From sequence record OQ031073: a stretch of 39,356 nucleotides of DNA; one strand, 5' to 3'. The notes beneath the pieces were generated by a model. It did not search any database, was not told where the DNA came from, and saw nothing but the letters and a program-made list of their open reading frames with translations. The stretch is from Shigella phage SFP21B. Position 1 is the stretch's first letter. Each line of letters starts with the position of its first letter. Below, piece after piece: positions 1,949 to 31,456 of the stretch. Both the position numbers and the translations under genes were made by a program.

Positions 1949-4318
1949 ATGCCACTTTACACGCAATCAATCAAGAACCTGAAGGGTGGCATTAGCCAAC
2001 AGCCGGACATCCTGAGGTTCTCTGACCAAGGTGAACAGCAGATTAACGGCTGGTCATCCGAGAGTGACGGGCTTCAGAAGCGACCACCGACCGTCTGGAA
2101 GAAAAGACTTTCAGCCGTGAACTGGGTCATCCCGAACAACGCTAAGTTCCATCTGATTAACAGGGATGAGAACGAGCAGTATTATATCGTCTTCACAGGA
2201 AAGGAAATCATGGTCTTTGACCTTGAGGGTAACCAGTACGCTGTTTCAGGTGTAACGGACTACGTGAACACTTCCAAGCCACGTGACGACATCCGGGTCA
2301 TTACAGTAGCTGACTACACGTTCGTAGTGAATCGGCGCACTGTGGTGGCTCAGGGGACAAATAAGGCAAACCCTACTTACAACATGAAGAACCGCGCTTT
2401 GATTAACCTTCGTGGTGGTCAGTACGGTAGATTGCTGAAGGTAGGAATTAATGGCGGTACAAAGGTTGAGCACCAGCTTCCTCCGGGAGATAACGCCAAA
2501 GATGACCCACCTAAAGTCGACGCTCAGGCTATCGGTAAGGCGTTGGTGGACCTGCTTGTCGTGGCCTATCCGAACTACACGTTCACCCTTGGGTCTGGCT
2601 ACATCGAGATTAAAGCCCCAGCAGGGACCAACATCAACTCGGTGGAGACTGAGGATGGCTATGCCAACCAGCTAATCAATGCGGTACTTGATACTGTGCA
2701 GACCATCAGTAAGCTACCTCTGGCAGCACCTGAAGGCTACATCATCCGTATTCAGGGTGAGACCAACAGCTCAGCCGATGAGTATTTCGTGAAGTATGAC
2801 TCCGCGAAGAAGACTTGGCGCGAGACTGTGGAGCCGGGGACCGTAACTGGTTTCGATGCGTCGACCATGCCACACGCTCTGGTCAGACAGGCAGATGGGA
2901 ACTTTACGTTCCAGACTCTCGATTGGTCTGAGCGGGGAGCAGGGAACGATGAAACCAACCCGATGCCGAGCTTCGTGGACTCTACGATTAACGATGTGTT
3001 CTTCTATCGTAACCGCTTAGGGTTCCTCTCTGGCGAGAACGTCATTATGTCCCGGTCGGCTGGCTACTTTGCGTTCTTCCCTAAAAGCGTGGCGACCCTC
3101 AGTGATGACGACCCGATTGATGTGGCTGTGAGTCACCCTCGAATCTCCATCCTGAAGTATGCCGTGCCGTTCGCTGAACAGCTCCTGCTGTGGTCTGATG
3201 AGGTACAGTTCGTGATGACCAGCTCTGGGGTCCTGACCGCCAAGTCCATTCAGCTTGACGTAGGCTCTGAGTTCGCTGTGAGTGATAACGCTCGACCGTT
3301 CGCTATCGGACGCTCAGTCTTCTTCGCGGCTCCTCGCGGCTCGTTCACCAGCATTAACCGTTACTTTGCGGTGGCCGACGTGACTGACGTGAAGGACGCA
3401 GACGATACGACCGGGCATGTGCTGTCCTACATTCCTAACGGAGTGTTCGACATCCAAGGGTCCTCGACTGAGAACTTCATCACGGTGTCGACTGAAGGTG
3501 CTCCGAACAAGCTGTTCATCTACAAGTTCCTCTTCAAGGATGGCGTACAGCTTCAAGCCTCGTGGTCACACTGGGAGCTGGAGCAGGGCGAGCAGATTAT
3601 AGCCTCAGCCTGTATCGGGTCCGCTATGTACATCGTGCGTAAGCATGGCTATGGCGTGGACTTGGAGAAGCTGGAGTTCATCAAGGAGACTGTGGACATC
3701 GCTGGCGAACCGTACCGTCTACACCTTGATGGCAAAACAACTATGGTCATCCCGACTAACGCATTCAACCCTAACACATACACATCATCCTTCGACGTTG
3801 GTGCGGCTTACGGTGGAGTTTTCCCACCAGCAGGGAAGTACGTCATGGTCGACTCAAGTGGGCGCTTCGTGCAACTGCCGGACACCGTATGGTCCAACAC
3901 TCGGTGGGTGACTGTGAAGGGAGATTGGTCAGGCAAGACAGTGTTCCTCGGTCGCGTCTACAAGTTCACCTACGCCTTCTCTCGGTTCCTCATCAAGTAT
4001 GAAGACCAGAATGGGACGGTAACGGAAGACTCCGGTCGACTACAGCTTCGCCGCGCTTGGGTGAACTATCAGCGTACTGGCGCTCTGGTGATGCGTGTCG
4101 TAAACCAACAGCGTGAGTTTCTGAACACCCTGAACGGCTACAAGCTGGGACTACAGGACATCGGTCAGGTCAACATTGGTGATGGTCAGTTCCGGTTCCC
4201 AATGAACGGTGACGCTCTGCACACTCGGTTAATCCTTGAGTCAGACTATCCGACTCCATTGTCCATCGTTGGTTGCGGCTGGGAGGCTTCATACGCCCGT
4301 AAAGCCAAAGCTATCTAA
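1949..4318 (+). CDS. 12: tail tubular protein B (gp12)
   Basis: 789 aa; T7 gp12-like (QSIKNLKGGISQQPDILR, MPHALVR, INDVFFYRNRLGFLSGEN, RLQLRRAWVNY, IVGCGWE); SD AGGAGGT. Confidence 0.95.
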   Translation: MPLYTQSIKNLKGGISQQPDILRFSDQGEQQINGWSSESDGLQKRPPTVWKKRLSAVNWVIPNNAKFHLINRDENEQYYIVFTGKEIMVFDLEGNQYAVSGVTDYVNTSKPRDDIRVITVADYTFVVNRRTVVAQGTNKANPTYNMKNRALINLRGGQYGRLLKVGINGGTKVEHQLPPGDNAKDDPPKVDAQAIGKALVDLLVVAYPNYTFTLGSGYIEIKAPAGTNINSVETEDGYANQLINAVLDTVQTISKLPLAAPEGYIIRIQGETNSSADEYFVKYDSAKKTWRETVEPGTVTGFDASTMPHALVRQADGNFTFQTLDWSERGAGNDETNPMPSFVDSTINDVFFYRNRLGFLSGENVIMSRSAGYFAFFPKSVATLSDDDPIDVAVSHPRISILKYAVPFAEQLLLWSDEVQFVMTSSGVLTAKSIQLDVGSEFAVSDNARPFAIGRSVFFAAPRGSFTSINRYFAVADVTDVKDADDTTGHVLSYIPNGVFDIQGSSTENFITVSTEGAPNKLFIYKFLFKDGVQLQASWSHWELEQGEQIIASACIGSAMYIVRKHGYGVDLEKLEFIKETVDIAGEPYRLHLDGKTTMVIPTNAFNPNTYTSSFDVGAAYGGVFPPAGKYVMVDSSGRFVQLPDTVWSNTRWVTVKGDWSGKTVFLGRVYKFTYAFSRFLIKYEDQNGTVTEDSGRLQLRRAWVNYQRTGALVMRVVNQQREFLNTLNGYKLGLQDIGQVNIGDGQFRFPMNGDALHTRLILESDYPTPLSIVGCGWEASYARKAKAI

Positions 4319-5447: not shown

Positions 5448-7730
5448 ATGGCTAGTAATATCGAATCAGCTTTAGCTAACCGGACTATGGGCCGTGGTCG
5501 CGCTCCGGGCAAAGCTATCAGTGTAGACTATCAAGCGGCTAACGTTCAGGGGCAGACTGGGGACTCCGGTCTTGCCCGTGCGTTCACCAACTTCGTGGAG
5601 TCCGGCACTGGCCTGTACAAGCAGTTTCAAGAGAAGGCCAAGAACCTTGGGGATGAGCGGTCTAACGAGATTATCCGTAAGCTGACTCCCCAGCAACGGC
5701 GTGAGGCCATCCAGAATGGGACCCTTCTGTATCAGGACGACCCGTATGCGATGGAGGCACTGAAAGTCAAGACTGGTCGCAACGCTGCCTATGCGGTGGA
5801 CGATGAGATTAACGTCAAGATTCAGAACGGTGAGTTCCGCACCCGTCAGGACATGGAGGAGTACCGACACCAGCGACTTCAGGATGCCGCTAAGTCCTAT
5901 GCTGATGAGGCTGGGATTAACCCGAACGATGAGCATTTCCAGCGTGGCTTTAACGCAGACATCACGGACCGCAACGTAGCCATCTATGGGTCGTTCAATA
6001 AGTATTTCTCTAAGCAGTCCGAGAATACCGCTATGCTGAACACCCGTGTCGAGCTGAACTCGTTCCTGAACGATGGGGACCTGATGCGTTCACCTGAGGC
6101 TGGCAAGTCGTTCATGGCCTACCTACGTGATGGACTTACCACTGCCGCCATTCCGTCTGACCAAAGGGCTACCGAAGTCATCTCTCAGACGGTGCGTGAT
6201 GCAATCCAGAAGTCCGGTGGCGCTAACTTCCTCCAGCAGATTCGACAGGAACGCATCACCCTTAACGGGGTGGACGCCACGGTCGAGGAGATTGTGGGAC
6301 CTGAGGTCTTCAATGCTGCCGTGGTTGAGGCTCAAGGCACCGAGTACAAGCTGGTAGCTAAGTATCAGGAAGACTTGTCGCTGGGCGTTCAGTCTGCCCT
6401 GCTTCAGGACGACCCGACCATTGGTCTGGCCCAAATCCAGAAACTCAAGGCTCAAAACAACCAGCTCCAGCCGGGTGAGGAAATGACACCACAGCGTCAG
6501 ATGCTCATTAATGCCGAAGCCAGCCTCTTAGAGTCCGTGAAGCGCAAGTCCGCTGAGCAGGCTAAGGAGAACACTAAGCTCATCCAGACGCAGAACAAGC
6601 AACTGGTCATAGACCAAGTGTATCAGCGACGACTGGCTGGTGACAACGTGTCCACCAACTATGAGGACCTCCCGGTATCCGAGGCCACTGGCGAGTTCAA
6701 GCGTTCGGACATGAACAACTACGCTATGGGTAAACTACAGCAGATTGACCAGATGGACATCCCGCAAGCTGCGAAGGATGCTCAGAAGGTGGCACTGCTG
6801 CGGGCTGACACCAACAATGGACCGTTCCGTAATGCCTTCCAGACGCTGACTCAGGATGCTGCTGGTGAGTGGCAGGCTGCGGTAATCCGTGGTCAATACG
6901 ACCCGGACAAGATGCAGCGCTTCGAGGCTCTGCGTAAGGTCTACACTCAGGACCCTTCCAGCTTCGCGGCTCTATACCCTGACCAAGCCCAATTGTTCAC
7001 GACTTTCGAGCAGATGGACAAGATGGGTCTGGACCCTCAGACTATGATTGACGCTGACAAACAGGCTGCAAGTCAGTCCCGTGAGATGCGCATTGAGTCT
7101 GACAAAGCGTGGCAGGAGCTTAAGAACGACTCGAAGAACAAGGACCTCTCGCGGCTACCGACGAGTCTGGACGCAAGTGCTCGTAAGGTCTGGGACTCAT
7201 GGTACTACCGCACAGGTAACGCCGATGCAGCTACCCAGAACACTCAGAAGTGGCTGAACGAGAACACCGTGACTTTCAGTGATGATGGTCAGGACGGTAA
7301 GTCCATCGGCATGGTGTCCAAGCACCAGCTTATGGTAGGGGATAACCCTGAGTCTTGGCAGGTTGGTCGAGACATTATCGACACAGCCCGCAAGCAGCTC
7401 ATCAAGACTAACCCTTGGGTCGTGAACTCTCAGCTCTCTGTAGTTGAGCAGAACGGCTCGGTCTTCCTGCAAGACGCCACTGGGACCATTCGTATTCGCT
7501 ACGATAAGGAACTGGTTGGTAAACTGTACCGTGAACAGCAGAAACAAGCCGAGGATAAAGCCTACGCTGAAGCTGAACGTAAAGCCAACACCCGCGCTCG
7601 CATTGTCGAGACTAAAGCGGCTGGTGATAAACGTCGAGCGGAGCGTGAAGGTAACATCCAGAAACGCGGCGGTATGTACAGTGATGTCTCGCTGGAGGGT
7701 ATCGCAAACACCTTAATCGGTAAGGAGTAA
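5448..7730 (+). CDS. 15: internal virion protein C (gp15)
   Basis: 760 aa, size and position of T7 gp15; SD AGGAGGA. Confidence 0.88.
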   Translation: MASNIESALANRTMGRGRAPGKAISVDYQAANVQGQTGDSGLARAFTNFVESGTGLYKQFQEKAKNLGDERSNEIIRKLTPQQRREAIQNGTLLYQDDPYAMEALKVKTGRNAAYAVDDEINVKIQNGEFRTRQDMEEYRHQRLQDAAKSYADEAGINPNDEHFQRGFNADITDRNVAIYGSFNKYFSKQSENTAMLNTRVELNSFLNDGDLMRSPEAGKSFMAYLRDGLTTAAIPSDQRATEVISQTVRDAIQKSGGANFLQQIRQERITLNGVDATVEEIVGPEVFNAAVVEAQGTEYKLVAKYQEDLSLGVQSALLQDDPTIGLAQIQKLKAQNNQLQPGEEMTPQRQMLINAEASLLESVKRKSAEQAKENTKLIQTQNKQLVIDQVYQRRLAGDNVSTNYEDLPVSEATGEFKRSDMNNYAMGKLQQIDQMDIPQAAKDAQKVALLRADTNNGPFRNAFQTLTQDAAGEWQAAVIRGQYDPDKMQRFEALRKVYTQDPSSFAALYPDQAQLFTTFEQMDKMGLDPQTMIDADKQAASQSREMRIESDKAWQELKNDSKNKDLSRLPTSLDASARKVWDSWYYRTGNADAATQNTQKWLNENTVTFSDDGQDGKSIGMVSKHQLMVGDNPESWQVGRDIIDTARKQLIKTNPWVVNSQLSVVEQNGSVFLQDATGTIRIRYDKELVGKLYREQQKQAEDKAYAEAERKANTRARIVETKAAGDKRRAEREGNIQKRGGMYSDVSLEGIANTLIGKE

Positions 7731-14437: not shown

Positions 14438-14697
14438 CGCAGATGGACTTAGAGAAGTTCCTGTTAATGCTGGACACCGAACGTGCTCGACTCATGTTGC
14501 AAGACCTGCGGGATGACTCTAAGCGTTCGCCACAGCTTTACAACGCCATCGAGAAGCTGCTGGCTCGTCACAACTTTGTACTGAGCAAGGTGTCGGTGGA
14601 CGAGAAGCAACTGGCTGACATGGAGGCGCTGAACCGAGAGTACGACAAGGTGCTATCAGCGACCGAGGATAATGACACCGGGTATGGTGTTCAGTAA
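14434..14697 (+). CDS. 18: terminase small subunit (gp18)
   Basis: 87 aa; T7 gp18-like (FLLMLDTERA, RSPQLYNAIEKLLARHNF); ATGA overlap with holin stop. Confidence 0.85.
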   Translation: MTQMDLEKFLLMLDTERARLMLQDLRDDSKRSPQLYNAIEKLLARHNFVLSKVSVDEKQLADMEALNREYDKVLSATEDNDTGYGVQ

Positions 14698-14700
14698 GTG

Positions 14701-14748
14701 TTAGACTCAAGGTCATTACCACTATATGTAGTGGCCTTTATGATTAAC
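14701..14748 (+). other. RNase III-type processing stem-loop (R18.5-like), copy 1 of a conserved motif
   Basis: TTAGACTCAAGGTC...GGCCTTTATGATTAAC; same motif recurs at 24351 and 31403. Confidence 0.45.
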
Positions 14749-14801
14749 ACACACTACGAGCGGTGACGCTACGTGGATTCTGAGAAATGAGGAGGGCAAC
14801 T

Positions 14802-18373: not shown

Positions 18374-18403
18374 TTGACAAGCAGTAACGACTTAAAGTAG
18401 TAT
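18374..18403 (+). promoter_or_regulatory. host sigma70-type early promoter (A3-like)
   Basis: TTGACA -35, 18-nt spacer, -10 TAGTAT, followed by GTACCACAT as in T7 A3. Confidence 0.5.
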
Positions 18404-18610: not shown

Positions 18611-19063
18611 ATGATTTACACTAACGAACCAGCCAACGTTTTCTATGTGCTCGTGTCTGCCGCTCGTGCTAACCTGTCTGATATGGCTAACATGGCCCGT
18701 CAGTTAGACCTTAAGGCACTGCTGCAAGCAGAACCTGAATACTACGGTGTGCTCGAATGCACTGGGCTTACAGGCTGCTACCGCGAGGAGGGACAAGAGG
18801 TCGCCACTGAAGAGAGAACCTACCGTGTGCGCTGTGAGTCCAAGGCTCAAGCTATCAACGTTGCACGACTGGCCTGCAATGACTTTGAGCAAGACTGCGT
18901 GATGGTCTACAAGTCTCAGACTCACACGGCTGGCCTGATGTTCTGCAAAGGCTTGGACGGCTACAAGACCACACGTCTGAACGGGTCATTCCAGCAAGTC
19001 GATGCACCAAAGGGCGAATGCTTCACGAAAGACGCTGAAGGGCGCTTCTGGGAGGTTGTGTAA
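18611..19063 (+). CDS. 0.3: S-adenosylmethionine lyase/hydrolase (T3 gene 0.3 type anti-restriction protein)
   Basis: 150 aa; strongly resembles T3 SAMase as remembered (EPANVFYVLVSA, TGCYRE, RVRCESKAQAINVARLACN, CVMVYKSQTHTAGL); SD AAGGA. Confidence 0.88.
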   Translation: MIYTNEPANVFYVLVSAARANLSDMANMARQLDLKALLQAEPEYYGVLECTGLTGCYREEGQEVATEERTYRVRCESKAQAINVARLACNDFEQDCVMVYKSQTHTAGLMFCKGLDGYKTTRLNGSFQQVDAPKGECFTKDAEGRFWEVV

Positions 19064-19064
19064 G

Positions 19065-19268
19065 ATGGTTAACTCATACCCTAATCACATCAAGCCATGG
19101 ATAACGGTTGATATTGAGACCGTGGGCGACTCCAAGTTTGTGACCATACGGTCAAGTATACACGTTAACAAGGAGTTCAAACTTCCGCATAGCTATAGCC
19201 TGAGCTGGGGAGACTGGGAGATTCTGCGTGATGGCGCTTTCCTCAAGTACGCAAGGAGGTTCTACTGA
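19065..19268 (+). CDS. hypothetical early protein
   Basis: 68 aa from first ATG after 0.3 stop (TAAGATG); ORF track 19002 start overlaps 0.3 and is less likely. Confidence 0.45.
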   Translation: MVNSYPNHIKPWITVDIETVGDSKFVTIRSSIHVNKEFKLPHSYSLSWGDWEILRDGAFLKYARRFY

Positions 19269-19393
19269 TGTACACGATAAGCTACAGCAGCGAGCAGGCG
19301 TTCTATGATGGTCTCGTCGAGCTGATGAAGCGCGGGGCCTGCTACACGGCTAACCACCATGCGCTAACCATAACGCTGACAGGCGGGTACTGA
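19268..19393 (+). CDS. hypothetical small early protein (41 aa)
   Basis: ATG overlapping upstream stop (TGATG); translation MYTISYSSEQAFYDGLVELMKRGACYTANHHALTITLTGGY; below track cutoff. Confidence 0.3.
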   Translation: MYTISYSSEQAFYDGLVELMKRGACYTANHHALTITLTGGY

Positions 19394-19487
19394 TGGCGTA
19401 AGCCAGCTTAACGAGTGCCAGACTACAGGTCATCCATGCGGGTGGCCTGACTGATTGTCACTTAACCACAAGAAGGAAACACACGTA

Positions 19488-20222
19488 ATGAACGCACACG
19501 ATAAAGTAATCATGAATAACCTGATGTCCCAGCTTCACGCTATCATCTGTCAGGCTGACTACAAGGTGGAGTCGCTGGGGTCTGGCATAGCTGCGCAAGA
19601 CCGCTGGGGAGCCTTTGAGATACTGGCGAGGGAACATGGTTACAGGCTGTTAGGACTGGGACACTTCGCCGCTGCCTTTGAGCATGAGGACCTGCCGGGA
19701 TATGCAATCAAGGTGGGCTTCAAGAAGGATGACTCAGGCGCTGCATATGCGGCCTTCTGCCGAGAGAATGAGGGTCTGGCTGGACTACCAGTCATCCATC
19801 TGGTCAAGCGCTTCAGCAGGGCGTACATGGTGGCTATGGACAAGTACCGCTCACTAAATGACATCGGCGGGGACTACTGCCGGGACGGTGAGACCTACGA
19901 GCAACGAGTCTTAAGCGTGTCATGGCGTGTAGTCAATGCGGTGATAGACCACTGCGAGCCACCATCTGAGGCCCTGAGCTGGTGGTTGGACCAAGACGCG
20001 CGAGCTGAGTTTGCACACGTCGAGACTCAATATATTAAAGACCTTGCGCAGACTGCACGTAAGATTCACACGTTCTTCTACGGTCTGGCATCGTTCGACA
20101 CGCACCGAGCTAACGTGATGGTCGATAACAACGGGCGCTTGATAATCACAGACCCAGTGTCTTGGACTCAGGCAGACCATCAAGACGAGCTGCAAGGCAG
20201 GCTGAACGCAATAGCTGAGTGA
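19488..20222 (+). CDS. 0.7: serine/threonine protein kinase (gp0.7), kinase domain only
   Basis: T7 gp0.7 kinase-domain similarity (GHFAAAFEH, VGFKKDDSGAAYAAFCR, ITDPVS); first ATG with SD AGAAGGAAA; track start 19455 is TTG upstream in frame. Confidence 0.88.
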   Translation: MNAHDKVIMNNLMSQLHAIICQADYKVESLGSGIAAQDRWGAFEILAREHGYRLLGLGHFAAAFEHEDLPGYAIKVGFKKDDSGAAYAAFCRENEGLAGLPVIHLVKRFSRAYMVAMDKYRSLNDIGGDYCRDGETYEQRVLSVSWRVVNAVIDHCEPPSEALSWWLDQDARAEFAHVETQYIKDLAQTARKIHTFFYGLASFDTHRANVMVDNNGRLIITDPVSWTQADHQDELQGRLNAIAE

Positions 20223-20289
20223 TAGACGAGAGGCCACTACATCTAGTGGTCTCAAAGATTATTTCTCACAACATATAGGCAGGTGAGCA

Positions 20290-20484
20290 ATGGGCTGGAT
20301 ACTTCTGGTCATCGGCTACGGGTTAATACTCGCAGTCATCACGAAAGACATCGTGAAGGCACGTAAAGTCTACCGCTTCCAGTATGTATCACTGGGGCGC
20401 TGGACTGTAAGACAACCGAACGGACGATTCATGCGCAACCTCGCAAACGTCTGGGACATCGCAACCTTAGGGAGTAAACTGTAA
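20290..20484 (+). CDS. hypothetical small membrane protein
   Basis: 64 aa; N-terminal hydrophobic helix GWILLVIGYGLILAVI then basic region. Confidence 0.45.
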   Translation: MGWILLVIGYGLILAVITKDIVKARKVYRFQYVSLGRWTVRQPNGRFMRNLANVWDIATLGSKL

Positions 20485-20810
20485 TGAACAAGTCATACGG
20501 CATCAATCTGGTTCACGCACTGGACGCCGACCTTAACCTGCTTTCATCACTGGCTACAGGCTACCGACACGGGAACTCAAGTCACACCGTTCGTCAACAG
20601 CAGGAGCGCGACCGGGTACTACAAGCAAGACTCCGGGCCGAGGGCAACAAGACCGAGCTGATGTGTCTGGCCTACGGTGGACGACCACGCACTGACGATG
20701 GTAAACTTCTGGTCTCAGGCTGGAAGGCGATAGACCAGCGGTCAGGCATCAAGCACACGACACGCGGTGACTTCAGTCATCTCCACGCTAACCCACTGAT
20801 ATGCAAGTAG
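20484..20810 (+). CDS. hypothetical early protein
   Basis: 108 aa; SD GGGAGT 8 nt upstream; TAATG overlap with previous ORF; no recognised homolog. Confidence 0.5.
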   Translation: MNKSYGINLVHALDADLNLLSSLATGYRHGNSSHTVRQQQERDRVLQARLRAEGNKTELMCLAYGGRPRTDDGKLLVSGWKAIDQRSGIKHTTRGDFSHLHANPLICK

Positions 20811-20815
20811 TATTG

Positions 20816-20838
20816 ATTAAACCCTCACTATAGGACTC
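20816..20838 (+). promoter_or_regulatory. phage RNAP promoter located upstream of the RNAP gene, GATTAAACCCTCACTATAGGACT
   Basis: full consensus match 70 nt upstream of gene 1 ATG, followed by stem-loop GGTCT...AGACC. Confidence 0.75.
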
Positions 20839-20908: not shown

Positions 20909-23575
20909 ATGAGCGTCATTCAGCTTGAGAAGCACGACTTCTCGGACATCTCCAACGCAATCGAGCCATTCAACATTCTGGCTGACCACTACGGTCAGGA
21001 CCTCGCAGTAAAACAGCTTCAGCTAGAGCATGAGGCATACACTGAAGGCGAGCGTCGTTTCATTAAGAACCTTGAGCGTCAGGCTGAGCGCGGGGAGCTG
21101 GCTGATAATCAGGTCGCAAGACCATTGATGCAAACTCTGGTCCCAAAGCTGGCGCAAGCCGTCAAGGAATGGCATGAGACCCAAGGGTCAACCCGTGGGA
21201 AACCTCAGGTCGCCTTCCTGAAGCTGAGCACTGAGAACAAGCCTCGTGAGCTTCTGGTCAAGCCTGAGTCGGTGGCAGTCATCGTCCTGAAGATTGCACT
21301 TAGCAAGCTGGTCAAGCCTGAAGGCGTACCGATTACGCCGATGGCCTCCGCTATAGGCCGCACACTGGAAGATGAAATCCGCTTCGGTCGCATCCGTGAC
21401 CAAGAGCAGGAGCACTTCAAGAAGACCATAGCTGAGAACCTGAAGAAACGCGCTGGCGTGGCCTACAAGAAAGCCTACATGCAAGCGGTCGAGGCCTCCA
21501 TGCTGGACCAGAAGCAACTGGCTGATGCGTGGGGGACTTGGAGTCCTGACGAGGCAGTACACGTAGGCATCAAGATGCTTGAGCTGCTGATTCAGTCCAC
21601 ACAACTGGTTGAGCTGAAGCGTCACAACGCCGGGAACGTAGCGTCAGACGTAGAAATGGTCCACCTGTCAGACTTCTGGGCCAAGAAGATGGCTCAGCGT
21701 GGTTACAGCCTTGCGGGTATCGCTCCGGTCTACCAACCTTGTGTCGTGCCTCCACGTCCTTGGAACTCGGTGGTCGGTGGCGGGTACTGGGCTAAAGGTC
21801 GCAGACCTCTCCCGCTGATGCGCTTAGGGTCGAAGGCCGCTATCGCTCGCTACGAGGAAGTTTACATGCCTGAAGTCTACGAGGCAGTGAACATCATTCA
21901 GCAGACTCCTTGGAAGGTGAACAAGAAGGTGCTGGACGTGGTTAACATGGTCGAGAAGCTGAACAATACTCCTATCGCAGACATCCCTCAGATGGACCCG
22001 ATGAAGCCTGAAGACTACAACGGGGAGACTGAAGAGGAGCTGAAGGCGTGGAAGAAAGCTGCTGCTGGCATCTACCGCCGCGAGAAGGCCCGACAGTCCC
22101 GCCGTTTGTCTCTGAGCTTCATCGTAGGACAGGCGAACAAGTTCTCTCAGTTCAAGGCCATTTGGTTCCCGTACAACATGGACTGGCGCGGTCGCGTCTA
22201 CGCTGTCCCGATGTTCAACCCACAAGGCAACGATATGCAGAAGGGTCTGCTGACTCTGGCAGTCGGTAAGCCAATTGGTGCGGACGGCTTCAAGTGGCTG
22301 AAGGTCCACGGTGCAAACTGTGCGGGTGTCGATAAAGTCACCTTCGAGGAGCGCATCAAGTGGGTAGAAGACAACCACGACAACATCCTCGCGGCTGCTA
22401 AGAGTCCGATGGATAGTATCGACTGGTGGGGCAAGCTGGACTCTCCGTTCTGCTTCCTCGCGTTCTGCTTCGAGTATGCTGGGGTCATGCACCACGGGCT
22501 GAGCTACTCCTGCTCTCTACCTATCGCGTTCGATGGGTCCTGCTCCGGGATTCAGCACTTCAGCGCGATGCTTCGTGACCACGTTGGTGGACATGCGGTT
22601 AACCTGACGCCAAGCGGGAAGGTTCAAGACATCTACCGCATTGTGTCCGACCGTGTGGAAGAACAGCTTAAGGAACTGCTGGTCAACGGTAGCGACAACG
22701 AGGTGAAGACTTTCGAGGACAAGAAGACAGGCGAGATTACTGAACGTATGGTCCTTGGAACTCGTGAGCTGGCCCGTCAGTGGTTGACCTACGGTATGTC
22801 ACGCTCGGTCACTAAACGCTCGGTAATGACTCTGGCATACGGGTCGAAAGAGTACGGGTTCGCGGACCAAGTGTTTGAGGACACCGTGATGCCAGCGATT
22901 GACAATGGCAAGGGTGCGATGTTCACAGACCCAAGCCAAGCGTCCCGCTTCATGGCTAAGATGATTTGGGATGCAGTAAGCGTGACCGTGGTTGCTGCGG
23001 TAGACGCGATGAAGTGGCTGCAAGGTGCGGCTAAACTGCTGGCTTCTGAGGTCAAGGACAAGAAGACCAAAGAGGTCCTGAAGCCTTGCCTCCCGGTACA
23101 CTGGGTCACGCCTGATGGGTTCCCGGTCTGGCAGGAGTACCGCAAGAAGGACACCACACGTCTGGACCTGATGTTCCTCGGTACTTTCCGTCTGCAACCT
23201 ACCGTCAACAAAAGCGGGAGCAAGGAGCTGGACAAACACAAGCAGGAGTCAGGCATTAGCCCGAACTTTGTACACTCACAAGACGGCAGTCACCTGAGGA
23301 AGACTGTGGTCCACACTCACCGCAAGTATGGCGTGATGTCCTTCGCAGTGATTCACGATAGCTTCGGGACCATCCCGGCTGACGCTGAGTTCCTGTTCAA
23401 AGGTGTCCGTGAGACGATGGTCGAGACCTACCGCGACAACGATGTGCTGCAAGACTTCTACGAGCAGTTCGCGGACCAGCTTCATGAGAGTCAGCGCGAC
23501 AAGTTGCCTGAGCTTCCGAAGCGCGGTAAACTGAACATCGAAGACATTCTGTTATCTGACTTTGCATTCGCCTAA
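20909..23575 (+). CDS. 1: single-subunit DNA-directed RNA polymerase (gp1)
   Basis: 888 aa; collinear with T7 RNAP (FSDI, PFNILADHYG, PCVVPPRPW, AIWFPYNMDWRGRVYAV, DGSCSGIQHFSAMLRD, RSVTKRSVMTLAYGS, HDSFGT, SDFAFA C-terminus). Confidence 0.98.
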   Translation: MSVIQLEKHDFSDISNAIEPFNILADHYGQDLAVKQLQLEHEAYTEGERRFIKNLERQAERGELADNQVARPLMQTLVPKLAQAVKEWHETQGSTRGKPQVAFLKLSTENKPRELLVKPESVAVIVLKIALSKLVKPEGVPITPMASAIGRTLEDEIRFGRIRDQEQEHFKKTIAENLKKRAGVAYKKAYMQAVEASMLDQKQLADAWGTWSPDEAVHVGIKMLELLIQSTQLVELKRHNAGNVASDVEMVHLSDFWAKKMAQRGYSLAGIAPVYQPCVVPPRPWNSVVGGGYWAKGRRPLPLMRLGSKAAIARYEEVYMPEVYEAVNIIQQTPWKVNKKVLDVVNMVEKLNNTPIADIPQMDPMKPEDYNGETEEELKAWKKAAAGIYRREKARQSRRLSLSFIVGQANKFSQFKAIWFPYNMDWRGRVYAVPMFNPQGNDMQKGLLTLAVGKPIGADGFKWLKVHGANCAGVDKVTFEERIKWVEDNHDNILAAAKSPMDSIDWWGKLDSPFCFLAFCFEYAGVMHHGLSYSCSLPIAFDGSCSGIQHFSAMLRDHVGGHAVNLTPSGKVQDIYRIVSDRVEEQLKELLVNGSDNEVKTFEDKKTGEITERMVLGTRELARQWLTYGMSRSVTKRSVMTLAYGSKEYGFADQVFEDTVMPAIDNGKGAMFTDPSQASRFMAKMIWDAVSVTVVAAVDAMKWLQGAAKLLASEVKDKKTKEVLKPCLPVHWVTPDGFPVWQEYRKKDTTRLDLMFLGTFRLQPTVNKSGSKELDKHKQESGISPNFVHSQDGSHLRKTVVHTHRKYGVMSFAVIHDSFGTIPADAEFLFKGVRETMVETYRDNDVLQDFYEQFADQLHESQRDKLPELPKRGKLNIEDILLSDFAFA

Positions 23576-24332: not shown

Positions 24333-24350
24333 ACCCTCACTATAGGATTA
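24328..24350 (+). promoter_or_regulatory. phage RNAP promoter (phi1.1-like), GCTTAAACCCTCACTATAGGATT
   Basis: consensus match. Confidence 0.85.
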
Positions 24351-24394
24351 GACTCAAGGTCATGACTCAAAGTCGTGGCCTTCATGATTAACCC
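24351..24394 (+). other. RNase III-type processing stem-loop (R1.1-like), copy 2
   Basis: GACTCAAGGTCATGACTCAAAGTCGTGGCCTTCATGATTAACCC. Confidence 0.45.
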
Positions 24395-24420
24395 TAACTC
24401 AAACTACTGGAGATTTAACC

Positions 24421-26796: not shown

Positions 26797-26874
26797 ATGG
26801 TGCGAGATGATGTTCGAGAAGACAGGAAATACTGACTACCTTGAACTATATAACCAATGGAAAGGGAGAGGACT

Positions 26875-27039
26875 ATGAGCCTTGAAGAAAAGAAGTACAT
26901 CGTGGAGCTTGAGGGTCGAGTTCAGTCCTTTGAGGTCCCGGTCTACGCTAAGTCTCTGGACGAGGCGACCCTGAAGGCTCAGGAATACGAGGACGCTGGC
27001 TTTGTTGTCGGACGCATTCACCCTGAGCGCAAGCAATAA
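26875..27039 (+). CDS. 2: gp2-like inhibitor of host RNA polymerase
   Basis: [14 protein letters not shown] ... AGFVVGRI resembles T7 gp2; start 26875 (SD GGGAGAGG), in-frame alternative 26857. Confidence 0.8.
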
Positions 27040-31386: not shown

Positions 31387-31404
31387 GCCCTCACTGTAGG
31401 ATAG
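31382..31404 (+). promoter_or_regulatory. phage RNAP promoter variant upstream of DNA polymerase, AATAAGCCCTCACTGTAGGATAG
   Basis: core CCTCACTGTAGG (G at -3). Confidence 0.7.
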
Positions 31405-31443
31405 ACTCAAGGTCGTTAATACTAGCGGCCTTTATGATTAGAC
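31403..31443 (+). other. RNase III-type processing stem-loop (R4.7-like), copy 3
   Basis: AGACTCAAGGTCGTTAATACTAGCGGCCTTTATGATTAGAC. Confidence 0.45.
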
Positions 31444-31456
31444 TATAGGAGACATT

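What the first reader, a model, noticed from the sequence alone, without database searches (positions are those of the whole stretch)
19488..20810. Short gp0.7 kinase followed by two extra ORFs
The gp0.7 homolog ends at 20222 (244 aa) and appears to contain only the kinase domain; the ~115-aa C-terminal host-shutoff region I recall in T7 gp0.7 is absent. In its place are a 64-aa membrane-anchored ORF (20290..20484) and a 108-aa ORF (20484..20810) with no recognisable similarity. They may replace the shutoff function or be unrelated accessory genes.
Basis: partly seen in the sequence, partly recalled or inferred. Interest (0 to 1): 0.45.

Follow-up and report, generated by a model that had tools for sequence, protein, structure and literature searches.

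The report
Kinase-only gp0.7 plus two backbone genes
This T7-like phage carries a naturally short version of the T7 protein kinase that lacks the DNA-binding "shutoff" tail, and the two small genes after it are ordinary conserved early genes of this phage genus (also found in relatives with no kinase), not replacements or leftovers of the missing tail.

Summary
The window is a permuted Kayfunavirus genome with a 244-aa gp0.7-type kinase (19488-20222), a 64-aa membrane-anchored ORF (20290-20484) and a 108-aa ORF (20484-20810) before gene 1. The kinase ends at the column of T7 R242, the experimentally defined kinase|shutoff (SO) boundary. It keeps every invariant motif and models as one compact kinase domain. 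No SO-like sequence was found in any frame of the genome.

The two ORFs are neither SO remnants nor likely SO substitutes. ORF64 belongs to the T3 gene 0.6 family, which in T3, Berlinvirus and a Teseptimavirus lies upstream of full-length kinases. ORF108 is "gp0.38", a narrow orphan family. The translationally coupled 0.6-0.38 pair precedes the phage promoter and gene 1 in relatives; 16 of 23 such loci have no kinase.

The kinase is the optional part. It is an ~822-bp unit carrying its own T7-type RNase III site, inserted just upstream of a second, conserved RNase III site.

The short kinases form a deep clade of their own, so this gene is not a truncated T7 gp0.7. The layout is already annotated in dozens of GenBank genomes. 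Interest is modest: these are natural SO-less T7-type kinases.

The parts
19411..19466 (+). T7/T3-type RNase III processing hairpin preceding the kinase cistron; part of the optional kinase unit
   Evidence: Covariance model R1, 65.9 bits, E 1.9e-12, though this site is a training sequence. It has the same shape and the ACAGGTCATC...GGTGGCCTGA core as the annotated T3 R1 site.
19488..20222 (+). SO-less gp0.7-type Ser/Thr/Tyr protein kinase, 244 aa, kinase domain only
   Evidence: Matches PHROG 15752 over its full length, 1.1e-109. 32% and 40% identity to the T7 and T3 kinase domains. Ends at the T7 R242 column; glycine loop, IKVGFKK, FDxHxxN and DPVS motifs are invariant. AF2 pLDDT 89, pTM 0.86. 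Kinase-like fold hits in the PDB. dN/dS 0.11-0.15.
19394..20215 (+). Extent of the kinase unit (RNase III site, RBS and kinase ORF up to its penultimate codons) that is absent from kinase-less Kayfunaviruses. CTGA occurs at both edges (19390-19393 and 20215-20218).
   Evidence: In blastn against L019 and L020, window 19268-19393 abuts directly on window 20216 onward.
20215..20270 (+). Conserved RNase III processing hairpin upstream of gene 0.6. Its 5' flank (CTGAGTGATAG) supplies the kinase's tandem stop codons.
   Evidence: Present in all Kayfunavirus loci with or without the kinase, and in CR8, with compensatory stem changes. Model R1 scores it 56.9 bits, as a training sequence. MFE -22 kcal/mol, z -2.1. 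Positive control: the model recovers five T7 early-region sites that were not in training.
20290..20484 (+). ORF64: T3-type gene 0.6 family member, with an N-terminal membrane anchor and a basic tail carrying the conserved R-x-TVR-x-x-NGRF motif
   Evidence: PHROG 2385, 1.7e-27. 79% identity to EcoDS1 gp0.6, 75% to CR8 gp0.71, 44% to PYPS50_043, 39% to JeanTinguely bas64_0011, 38% to T3 gp0.6 (alignment A4). TM segment at residues 1-17. dN/dS 0.15-0.34.
20484..20810 (+). ORF108: 'gp0.38', a lineage-restricted small basic helical protein of unknown function, translationally coupled to ORF64 (TAATG)
   Evidence: PHROG 7066, 2e-42. 86% identity to EcoDS1 gp0.38 and 46% to CR8 gp0.38. 143 homologs of 83-139 aa, all listed named hits from T7-like phages and many on ~40-kb contigs. 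Only 14 representatives among 1.84 billion proteins. AF2 helical core 33-88 at pLDDT ~83. No PDB fold match; BFVD hits are its own family only. dN/dS 0.15-0.34.
20820..20835 (+). Phage RNA polymerase promoter core (AACCCTCACTATAGGA) between ORF108 and gene 1
   Evidence: 12 matches in the window against 0.23 expected, with an exact copy here. A promoter is annotated at the same position in EcoDS1 and CR8.
20909..23575 (+). Gene 1, T7-type single-subunit RNA polymerase (888 aa); downstream boundary of the early block
   Evidence: ORF list. 99% identity to the GW1 RNAP N-terminus.
18611..19393 (+). Upstream early genes: SAM lyase (18611-19063), DUF7300 protein (probable start 19065, end 19268) and a 41-aa ORF (19268-19393)
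   Evidence: Pfam PF23780 3.4e-40 and PF23974 2e-26. PHROGs 2226, 4445 and 33188. GW1 and P7124 annotation.

Best explanation
The region is the standard class I (early, host-RNAP-transcribed) block of a Kayfunavirus.

Shown:
1. The 244-aa protein is a complete, self-contained T7-type kinase domain. It belongs to a distinct, deep-branching clade (Kayfunavirus plus Caroctavirus) in which no member examined has the SO domain. It is not a recent truncation of a T7-like gp0.7.
2. It sits on an optional ~822-bp unit with its own RNase III site. The unit is inserted immediately 5' of a second, conserved RNase III site, and that backbone sequence supplies the kinase's stop codons.
3. ORF64 (T3 gene 0.6 family) and ORF108 (gp0.38) form a translationally coupled pair. 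The pair is part of the conserved backbone (RNase III site, 0.6, 0.38, phage promoter, gene 1) whether or not a kinase is present.

Inferred:
- After infection, host RNAP transcribes the block and RNase III releases a monocistronic kinase mRNA and a 0.6-0.38(-gene 1) mRNA.
- The kinase probably phosphorylates host proteins promiscuously, like T7K. Without DNA tethering it should behave like the T7 delta-SO mutant: less total phosphorylation, no bias toward nucleic-acid-binding proteins, faster self-inactivation, lower toxicity, and no kinase-independent transcription shutoff.
- Host RNAP inhibition is left to the gp2 homolog (26872-27024).
- ORF64 is most likely a small inner-membrane-anchored host-takeover factor with a cytoplasmic basic tail. 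ORF108 is most likely a small soluble basic helical host-factor binder. Both act independently of the kinase.
For: Kinase domain complete, SO absent:
- BLASTP to T7 and T3.
- Alignment ends at the T7 R242 column with all invariant motifs kept.
- AF2 pLDDT 89, pTM 0.86, with a terminal helix at 229-242.
- 89 kinase-fold PDB hits at E<=1e-3.
- No SO signal in the six-frame window by tblastn or by HMM (best E 1.1, against a Przondovirus control at 1e-15).
- Tandem stops followed by a hairpin.

Distinct clade:
- All homologs at >=54% identity are 229-244 aa apart from four shorter partial entries (135-174 aa); those at <=46% are mostly 320-400 aa.
- The short clade has 100% bootstrap and lies outside the long clade. 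The outgroups lack an SO-length or recognisably SO-like tail by inspection (not scored with the SO HMM).
- dN/dS 0.11-0.15.

Optional unit:
- blastn junctions and base-level alignment.
- Kinase present in 7 of 23 gp0.38-bearing IMG/VR loci.
- About 47 GenBank records carry the short kinase at >=60% identity, against 223 with gp0.38.

RNase III sites:
- Similarity to annotated T3 R sites.
- 20 pairs, 10 with compensatory changes.
- The covariance model recovers five untrained T7 early-region sites.

Backbone pair:
- Synteny.
- Homology.
- Phage promoter.

Expected delta-SO behaviour and the kinase|SO boundary come from PMC13645617 and PMC12345140.
Against: - No experiment bears on this protein. 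Kinase activity, promiscuity and delta-SO-like behaviour are extrapolated from T7 and JSS1.
- Deep nodes of the tree are weak (44-66% bootstrap, NJ on 161 columns). 'Ancestrally SO-less' versus 'lost once in the Kayfunavirus/Caroctavirus ancestor' is therefore not settled.
- The SO HMM was built from only four sequences and missed the divergent Ningirsuvirus tail. A very divergent SO analogue could escape detection.
- The functions proposed for ORF64 and ORF108 rest only on composition, topology and position. ORF108's model is of modest quality (pLDDT 64.7).
- RNase III cleavage is inferred from structure and sequence similarity, not shown.
- The direction of the indel (insertion or deletion) is unknown.
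Confidence: 0.78

Rival explanations
1. One reading: ORF108 and/or ORF64 supply the missing shutoff or DNA-targeting function in trans, so the kinase plus small ORFs amount to a split version of T7 gp0.7.
For: Both ORFs are basic (pI 11.0 and 9.75, against 11.3 for the T7 and T3 SO domains). ORF108 has a confident helical core, and the T7 SO domain binds DNA through a basic helix (PMC13645617). In this genome they lie directly downstream of the kinase.
Against: - There is no sequence or profile similarity to SO.
- The pair is present in 16 of 23 loci with no kinase, including EcoDS1.
- ORF64 homologs coexist with full-length kinases.
- ORF108 is much less basic than SO (16 K+R to 10 D+E, against 30 to 16) and is not depleted in S/T/Y (15.7% against 2.6%).
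- The kinase is separated from them by an RNase III site.
- Another SO-less lineage has no such ORFs.
Confidence: 0.07
2. The two ORFs are frameshifted or decayed remnants of the 3' part of a longer 0.7 gene.
For: Their combined length (172 aa) and position downstream of the kinase are superficially compatible.
Against: - tblastn of the T7 and T3 C-terminal parts against all frames gives nothing better than E~2, and the HMM best is E 1.1.
- Both ORFs are under purifying selection (dN/dS 0.15-0.34).
- Each has its own RBS and belongs to an independent family with hundreds of members.
- A conserved RNase III hairpin separates them from the kinase.
Confidence: 0.01
3. The short kinase is a secondary loss. 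A full-length gp0.7 lost its SO domain once in the common ancestor of Kayfunavirus and Caroctavirus (for example through the recombination that placed it next to the conserved RNase III site), rather than being ancestrally SO-less.
For: - The ORF ends exactly at the kinase|SO boundary, and its stop codons lie in backbone sequence, as expected if a recombination junction cut off the 3' part.
- Partial SO truncations do occur inside the long clade: P0186 (289 aa) and P0203 (286 aa) sit next to 354- and 392-aa sisters.
- Deep tree nodes are weakly supported.
Against: - The short clade branches outside all long kinases.
- The outgroups (Colwellvirinae AS51, Brevundimonas phage Babayka, a jumbophage) lack an SO-length or recognisably SO-like tail by inspection. 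PMC13645617 also reports jumbophage and prophage homologs without SO.
- The short kinases differ throughout: they lack ~24 N-terminal residues and have a ~20-aa internal insert.
Confidence: 0.3
4. The short kinase is an inactive, decaying pseudo-kinase.
For: It lacks the SO domain and the T7 222-230 segment that contains the Ser227 autophosphorylation site. The gene is dispensable in most relatives.
Against: All 38 columns invariant across 42 diverse homologs are retained, including G56/G58/F60, K75, D204/H206/N209 and D222-P223-V224-S225. dN/dS is 0.11-0.15. The fold prediction is confident and compact.
Confidence: 0.03

Closest known systems
T7 gp0.7 (T7K) and JSS1_004: bifunctional early kinase with a C-terminal shutoff (SO) domain
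   Same: Homologous kinase domain (32-40% identity) with the glycine loop, catalytic HxxN, the DPV motif and the conserved Ser after it. It is an early gene upstream of gene 1 and is followed at once by an RNase III site, as with T7 and T3 R1.
   Different: - No SO domain; the protein stops at the T7 R242 equivalent.
- It lacks ~24 N-terminal residues and the Ser227 segment, and has a ~20-aa insert at residues ~127-150.
- It is not adjacent to gene 1.
- It belongs to a separate clade (PHROG 15752 rather than 2828).
- It is optional within its genus.
T3 gene 0.6 protein and its orthologs in Berlinvirus (PYPS50_043) and Teseptimavirus JeanTinguely (bas64_0011)
   Same: ORF64 shares the length (64-66 aa), the N-terminal transmembrane segment, the basic tail and the invariant R-x-TVR-x-x-NGRF-x-x-N...AT motif. 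It is preceded by an RNase III site, as T3 gene 0.6 is preceded by R0.5.
   Different: It lies downstream of the kinase rather than immediately upstream. It lacks a 5-residue segment and has a different C-terminal end (WDIATLGSKL). It is not related to T7 gp0.6A, the reported MreB inhibitor, despite the shared gene number.
gp0.38 of Escherichia phage EcoDS1 and Citrobacter phage CR8 (PHROG 7066)
   Same: ORF108 shares the conserved ~84-aa C-terminal core, the position immediately before the phage promoter and gene 1, and the one-base stop/start overlap with the 0.6-like gene.
   Different: The N-terminal region varies across the family (83-86, 108 and 130-139-aa forms). The window has the 108-aa form. 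No function is known for any member.
RNase III processing sites of T7 and T3 early mRNAs (R0.3, R0.5, R1, R1.1, R1.3)
   Same: The hairpins at 19411-19466 and 20215-20270 have the same lower stem, asymmetric internal loop and upper stem, with the AGGTCA...TGGCCT core.
   Different: The 20215 site has a variant upper stem (GGCCACT/AGTGGTC) with compensatory changes. Cleavage has not been shown.

Membership tests
T7 gp0.7-type protein kinase (PHROG 2828/15752; Pfam PF27024 Phage_T7_kinase) | Sequence homology to the T7K kinase domain (residues 1-242) | tested here: met
   BLASTP 1e-36 to T7 and 1e-40 to T3. PHROG 15752 at 1.1e-109 and PHROG 2828 at 5e-53. Close homologs carry a precomputed PF27024 hit.
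T7 gp0.7-type protein kinase (PHROG 2828/15752; Pfam PF27024 Phage_T7_kinase) | Catalytic motifs: glycine loop (LGxGHF), IKVGFKK lysine, FDxHxxN, the DPV motif and the following Ser | tested here: met
   G56, G58, F60, K75, D204, H206, N209, D222, P223, V224 and S225 all fall in columns invariant across 42 homologs. The DPV and Ser216 roles are from PMC13645617.
T7 gp0.7-type protein kinase (PHROG 2828/15752; Pfam PF27024 Phage_T7_kinase) | Protein-kinase-like fold | tested here: met
   AF2 pLDDT 89, pTM 0.86. Foldseek against the PDB gives APH(2'')-Ia, MSK1, MELK, ULK1 and PknB at probability ~1.0, with 89 hits at E<=1e-3 but low TM scores (~0.35).
T7 gp0.7-type protein kinase (PHROG 2828/15752; Pfam PF27024 Phage_T7_kinase) | [quoted passage not shown] | tested here: not met
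   The protein ends at the T7 R242 column. There is no SO hit anywhere in the window. It is therefore a member of the kinase-domain family but not of the bifunctional T7K architecture.
T7 gp0.7-type protein kinase (PHROG 2828/15752; Pfam PF27024 Phage_T7_kinase) | Ser/Thr/Tyr kinase activity on host proteins | not testable with these tools
   Requires biochemistry or phosphoproteomics.
T7K shutoff (SO) domain, tested as a candidate identity for ORF64 or ORF108 | Sequence or profile similarity to the SO domains of T7, T3, JeanTinguely and PYPS50 | tested here: not met
   hhalign probability 0.1% for the ORF108 family and 2.5% for the ORF64 family. BLASTP E>=0.03 on short basic stretches only. 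The ORF108 profile search of 1.84 billion proteins hit no ~360-aa kinase.
T3 gene 0.6 family (PHROG 2385) | Homology plus an N-terminal TM helix and a basic tail with the RxTVRxxNGRF motif | tested here: met
   PHROG 2385 at 1.7e-27. BLASTP 3e-13 to PYPS50_043 and 6e-5 to T3 gp0.6. 16 invariant columns in A4. TM segment at residues 1-17.
T3 gene 0.6 family (PHROG 2385) | Position immediately upstream of gene 0.7 | tested here: not met
   Here, and in GW1, P7124 and CR8, it lies downstream of the kinase. It lies upstream in T3, PYPS50, JeanTinguely and pEp_SNUABM_04. Position is not a strict family criterion.
gp0.38 family (PHROG 7066) | Homology to EcoDS1/CR8 gp0.38 and a position directly before the phage promoter and gene 1, overlapping the stop of the 0.6-like gene | tested here: met
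   PHROG 7066 at 2e-42. 86% and 46% identity. Synteny holds in all 23 loci. BFVD Foldseek hit to EcoDS1 Gp0.38.
T7/T3-type RNase III processing sites | Bipartite hairpin with an asymmetric internal loop and a conserved upper-stem core, located between early cistrons | tested here: met
   RNAalifold gives 20 pairs, 10 with compensatory changes. A covariance model built on T3, window, L020 and CR8 sites finds five sites in T7's early region that were not in training.
T7/T3-type RNase III processing sites | Cleavage by host RNase III | not testable with these tools
   Needs RNA-end mapping in wild-type and rnc hosts.

The most novel reading that the evidence does not exclude
gp0.38 (ORF108), a basic helical orphan protein kept directly in front of gene 1 in all Kayfunavirus and Caroctavirus genomes, could be a free-standing host-shutoff or nucleic-acid-binding factor. 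In that reading it does in trans what the fused SO domain does in T7-like phages. In kinase-bearing members it could also tether or prolong the SO-less kinase. This lineage would then show the unfused state of a two-function system that T7 has fused into one protein.
Probability: 0.07. Interest if true: 0.6.

Novelty: new member of a known kind. Interest (0 to 1): 0.27.

Why it matters
Recent work shows that the SO domain of the T7 kinase binds DNA. It steers an otherwise hyper-promiscuous kinase toward nucleic-acid-binding defence proteins and delays the kinase's self-inactivation (PMC13645617). It is also needed, together with the kinase domain, to defeat DndFGH (PMC12345140).

That study states that Autographiviridae homologues mostly keep the SO domain. 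The Kayfunavirus/Caroctavirus clade seen here is a sizeable natural set of SO-less kinases inside the same family. About 47 GenBank genomes carry it, along with many metagenomic contigs. It offers a ready-made comparison for what the kinase domain does alone, and for whether the SO domain was gained or lost.

The practical lesson for annotation is that many records label these 244-aa proteins 'inhibitor of host transcription'. That function belongs to a domain they do not have.

The kinase cistron is also a clean presence/absence polymorphism next to a conserved RNase III site. This gives near-isogenic natural pairs for testing its anti-defence value.

Beyond that, the locus is ordinary for its genus.

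Tried and rejected
- **Frameshifted SO remnant.** tblastn of the full-length and C-terminal parts of T7 and T3 gp0.7 against the whole window in all frames found only the kinase domain. The best C-terminal hit was E 1.9, outside the region.
- **SO domain elsewhere in the genome.** An HMM of four SO domains searched against 823 six-frame segments gave a best E of 1.1. The control Przondovirus kinase scored 1e-15, but the divergent Ningirsuvirus tail was missed, so sensitivity is limited.
- **Remote homology of ORF108 or ORF64 to SO.** hhalign gave probabilities of 0.1% and 2.5%.
- **Function of ORF108 from databases.** Pfam, NCBIfam and PADLOC gave no hits. The PHROG family has unknown function. 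A profile search of 1.84 billion representatives returned only 14 family members plus one repetitive 1594-aa chance-like hit. Foldseek against the PDB found nothing, and against BFVD only its own family. The model quality is modest (pLDDT 64.7).
- **ORF64 as T7 gp0.6A (MreB inhibitor).** There is no similarity in BLASTP. The shared gene number is misleading.
- **Solved structure of a homolog of the kinase.** None was found by sequence.
- **Intrinsic terminator after the kinase.** None was found; the hairpin lacks a T-run and is better explained as an RNase III site.
- **Literature on gp0.38 or the Kayfunavirus kinase.** Only descriptive genome papers list the same layout, for example phage B1 in PMC12785254. 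The supplementary tables of PMC13645617 were not available.
Full report
**What the window is.** The 39,356-bp window is a complete, circularly permuted T7-like genome. Its early region is 87-93% identical in DNA to Kayfunavirus genomes, including Cronobacter phage GW1, Shigella phage SFPH2 and Klebsiella phage P7124. All long ORFs lie on the + strand. Gene 1 (RNA polymerase, 888 aa) is at 20909-23575. The left genome end of relatives corresponds to about window 17697.

**Check of the observation.**
- The kinase runs 19488-20222. It has an ATG start 9 nt after AAGGA, is 244 aa long and ends in tandem stops TGA TAG.
- ORF64 runs 20290-20484, with a GGTGAG RBS.
- ORF108 runs 20484-20810. It has a GGGAG RBS and starts in a TAATG overlap with the ORF64 stop.

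The kinase aligns with T7 gp0.7 residues 27-219 (32% identity, E 1e-36) and with T3 gp0.7 residues 52-226 (40%, 1e-40). In a multiple alignment with T7, T3, JeanTinguely, PYPS50 and CR8, its last residue E244 falls in the column of T7 R242. The 2026 study of the T7 kinase defines the kinase domain as residues 1-242 and the shutoff (SO) domain as 243-359 (PMC13645617). The natural protein therefore ends at the experimentally used domain boundary, and 117 residues are missing relative to T7.

ORF64 has an uncharged hydrophobic segment at residues 1-17 (mean Kyte-Doolittle 2.46) and a net +8 remainder. All three genes show purifying selection, with pairwise dN/dS of 0.11-0.34. The exception is 'no recognisable similarity' for the small ORFs, which is wrong.

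**The kinase is a complete, conserved, SO-less kinase, not a broken T7 gp0.7.**
- It matches PHROG 15752 (260 positions) from end to end at 1.1e-109. It matches only the N-terminal 48-225 of the 366-position T7-type PHROG 2828.
- All 38 columns invariant across 42 diverse homologs are retained. They include the glycine loop (G56, G58, F60), K75 in IKVGFKK, D204/H206/N209, and D222-P223-V224-S225. The last group corresponds to T7's DPV motif and the inhibitory Ser216 (PMC13645617).
- AlphaFold2 gives one compact domain (pLDDT 89, pTM 0.86) that finishes with a helix at 229-242.
- Foldseek finds only kinase-fold proteins in the PDB, including APH(2'')-Ia, MSK1, MELK, ULK1 and PknB. There are 89 hits at E<=1e-3, though TM scores are low (~0.35).
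- In a 5.8-billion-protein search, homologs at >=54% identity are 229-244 aa apart from four shorter partial entries (135-174 aa), and those at <=46% are mostly 320-400 aa.
- In GenBank phages, 901 records carry a homologous kinase, but only 47 are >=60% identical to this one.

A neighbour-joining tree of the kinase core (161 columns, 200 bootstraps) recovers the Kayfunavirus plus Caroctavirus short kinases as a 100%-supported clade outside the clade of long kinases. The outgroups are Colwellvirinae AS51, Brevundimonas phage Babayka and a jumbophage. By inspection of their C-terminal tails none has an SO-length or recognisably SO-like tail, though Babayka and the jumbophage were not scored with the SO HMM. 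Deep nodes have only 44-66% support. 'Ancestrally SO-less' is therefore favoured but not settled.

The short kinases also differ elsewhere. They lack about 24 N-terminal residues and the T7 222-230 segment that contains Ser227, and they carry an insert of about 20 aa.

**No SO domain anywhere in the genome.** tblastn of the full-length and C-terminal parts of T7 and T3 gp0.7 against all six frames finds only the kinase domain. The best C-terminal hit has E 1.9 and lies elsewhere. An HMM of four SO domains searched against 823 six-frame segments gives a best E of 1.1. It scores an untrained Przondovirus kinase tail at 1e-15 but misses the divergent Ningirsuvirus tail, so its reach is limited.

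**What the two ORFs are.**

*ORF64* belongs to PHROG 2385. Its identities are:
- 79% to EcoDS1 'gp0.6';
- 75% to CR8 'gp0.71';
- 44% to Berlinvirus PYPS50_043 (E 3e-13);
- 39% to Teseptimavirus JeanTinguely bas64_0011;
- 38% to T3 gp0.6 itself (6e-5).

The six proteins share 16 invariant positions, including R-x-TVR-x-x-NGRF. In T3, PYPS50, JeanTinguely and pEp_SNUABM_04 this gene lies immediately upstream of a kinase, full-length (358-369 aa) in the first three. It therefore normally coexists with an SO domain. It is not similar to T7 gp0.6A.

*ORF108* belongs to PHROG 7066. It is 86% identical over residues 25-108 to EcoDS1 'gp0.38' and 46% identical to CR8 'gp0.38'.
- The family is narrow. 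It has 143 proteins of 83-139 aa; all listed named hits are from T7-like phages, and many lie on ~40-kb contigs. It has only 14 representatives at 50% identity among 1.84 billion proteins, and none of them lies inside a kinase.
- A conserved core of about 84 aa is preceded by a variable N-terminus.
- The AF2 model is helical, with a confident core at residues 33-88 (pLDDT ~83) and an overall pLDDT of 64.7.
- It has no PDB match, and in BFVD it matches only its own family.
- Pfam, NCBIfam and PADLOC give nothing.

Profile-profile comparison with the SO domains gives a probability of 0.1% for ORF108 and 2.5% for ORF64.

**Synteny decides the interpretation.** I examined 23 distinct IMG/VR loci found with the ORF108 profile.
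- The ORF108 homolog always lies about 100 nt upstream of gene 1.
- An ORF64 homolog lies just upstream of it in 22 of the 23.
- A kinase is present in only 7. The other 16 have none.

EcoDS1 likewise has 0.6, 0.38, a phage promoter and gene 1, with no kinase. Whenever the kinase is present it stops at the same residue, and no SO hit occurs. The one-base stop/start overlap of the two small genes is conserved in GW1, P7124, EcoDS1, CR8 and phage B1.

A second, unrelated SO-less kinase lineage also exists (P0201, 247 aa, ending 8 residues after DPV). It is followed directly by gene 1 with no intervening ORF. The two ORFs are therefore backbone genes of the genus and the kinase is the variable element. 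They are not stand-ins for the missing domain.

**The kinase is a discrete unit bounded by RNase III sites.** In blastn against the kinase-less loci L019 and L020, the 41-aa ORF (19268-19393) abuts directly on window 20216 onward. Base-level inspection shows that the unit 19394-20215 is absent there, with CTGA at both edges. The kinase's stop codons lie in the motif CTGAGTGATAGACGAGAGG, which is conserved in every Kayfunavirus with or without the kinase and in CR8.

This motif begins a hairpin at 20215-20270 (MFE -22 kcal/mol, z -2.1). The hairpin has the shape and the AGGTCA...TGGCCT core of T3's annotated RNase III sites R0.3, R0.5, R1 and R1.1. A second such hairpin at 19411-19466 precedes the kinase.

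The eight-sequence alignment gives 20 consensus pairs, 10 with compensatory changes. A covariance model was built from it with no T7 sequence in training. The model finds five sites in T7's first 6.5 kb, at 851-904, 1426-1482, 3100-3152, 5846-5901 and 6412-6456. From my own knowledge of Dunn and Studier's map, these are R0.3, R0.5, R1, R1.1 and R1.3. The model also finds three further sites in the window: 14694-14755, 24341-24399 and 31394-31449.

The optional unit is therefore one 'RNase III site plus cistron' module. In T3, gene 0.6 is likewise preceded by R0.5. There is no RNase III site between ORF108 and gene 1. Instead there is an exact copy of the phage promoter core at 20820-20835, one of 12 matches in the window against 0.23 expected. 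EcoDS1 and CR8 annotate a promoter at the same position.

**Most likely mechanism (inferred).** Host RNAP transcribes the block from the early promoters; a TTGACA-18-TAGTAT match lies at 18374-18403. RNase III then yields a monocistronic kinase mRNA and a 0.6-0.38(-gene 1) mRNA.

The kinase probably acts as a promiscuous Ser/Thr/Tyr kinase like T7K. It lacks the DNA-binding SO domain. By analogy with the T7 delta-SO mutant, it should give less overall phosphorylation (~31% of wild-type phosphopeptides in T7), no preference for nucleic-acid-binding proteins, earlier self-inactivation and lower toxicity (PMC13645617). By analogy with JSS1 delta-SO, it should be weaker against DndFGH-type defences (PMC12345140).

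Kinase-independent transcription shutoff cannot come from this protein. A gp2 homolog, the host RNAP inhibitor, is present at 26872-27024 (44% identity, 7.5e-11).

ORF64 is most likely a small inner-membrane-anchored protein with a cytoplasmic basic tail. ORF108 is most likely a small basic helical binder of a host factor. Both act independently of the kinase. These functional assignments are weak.

**Comparison with what is known, and novelty.** The layout (kinase of 243-244 aa, then a 64-aa ORF, a 108-aa ORF and gene 1) is already annotated in many GenBank genomes. It also appears in a published gene table (PMC12785254). This locus is therefore a new member of known families.

What has not, as far as I could find, been spelled out in the literature:
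- these kinases form a separate SO-less clade within Autographiviridae, whereas PMC13645617 says such homologues 'mostly retained' the SO domain;
- the kinase is a presence/absence module next to a conserved RNase III site.

Several records label the 244-aa protein 'inhibitor of host transcription'. That function belongs to a domain these proteins lack.

**Verdict.** The 'replacement' interpretation is not supported, and the 'unrelated accessory genes' alternative is. The locus is ordinary for its genus. It has modest interest as a natural SO-less counterpart of the T7 kinase.

Noticed in passing
window 20820-20835 (also 4347, 11632, 17108, 24332, 26182, 27039, 29028, 31386, 35438, 38257, 39233): The phage RNAP promoter core AACCCTCACTATAGGA has 12 + strand matches against 0.23 expected. 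One exact copy lies directly upstream of gene 1, so the phage polymerase gene can be transcribed by its own product. EcoDS1 and CR8 annotate a promoter at the same position.
   Followed up: partly
window 14694-14755, 24341-24399, 31394-31449: Three more T7-type RNase III hairpins were found by the covariance model (59.5, 50 and 40 bits) and were not in its training set. Two of them lie immediately after phage promoters (24332 and 31386).
   Followed up: partly
window 18611-19063 and 19488-20222; loci L003-L038: In Kayfunavirus loci the SAM lyase (SAMase) gene and the short kinase co-occur. All 6 kinase-bearing IMG/VR Kayfunavirus loci have SAMase, and all 16 kinase-less loci lack it. CR8 pairs the kinase with Ocr instead. 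The left arm of the early region looks mosaic.
   Followed up: partly
P0201/P0191/P0193; locus L044 4001-4744: A second, unrelated SO-less kinase lineage (246-247 aa) ends only 8 residues after the DPV motif. It sits on a 41.3-kb T7-like contig with Ocr upstream and gene 1 directly downstream. P0186 (289 aa) and P0203 (286 aa) look like partial SO truncations next to full-length sisters.
   Followed up: partly
window 19002-19268: The mechanically listed 88-aa ORF overlaps the SAMase gene. Relatives annotate a 67-aa DUF7300 protein, which corresponds to a start at ATG 19065, two bases after the SAMase stop.
   Followed up: partly
L003 (GW1) 2386-2733; L011, L013, L015, L024 between the ORF64 and ORF108 homologs: Relatives carry extra small genes that the window lacks. 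GW1 has a 115-aa ORF between the 41-aa ORF and the kinase. Several loci have inserts of 140-430 bp between the 0.6-like and 0.38 genes; IMM-002 annotates an endonuclease VII in this region.
   Followed up: no
window ~17697: The contig or genome starts of EcoDS1, L019, L020 and L031 align to window 17697. The physical left end of the genome probably lies there, and the window is a circular permutation with the terminal repeat collapsed.
   Followed up: no
GenBank annotations seen (e.g. NC_048025, NC_048161, NC_023548): The 242-244-aa kinases are labelled 'protein kinase; inhibitor of host transcription; positively regulates RNaseIII...'. This label is transferred from full-length T7 gp0.7, but the transcription-shutoff domain is absent from these proteins.
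   Followed up: yes
P0129 (1594 aa): The gp0.38 profile hit seven stretches of a 1594-aa protein (E 3.8e-9, profile positions 16-58). This is probably a repetitive or coiled-coil chance match to the RQQQERDRVLQARLRAEG helix. It was not examined.
   Followed up: no
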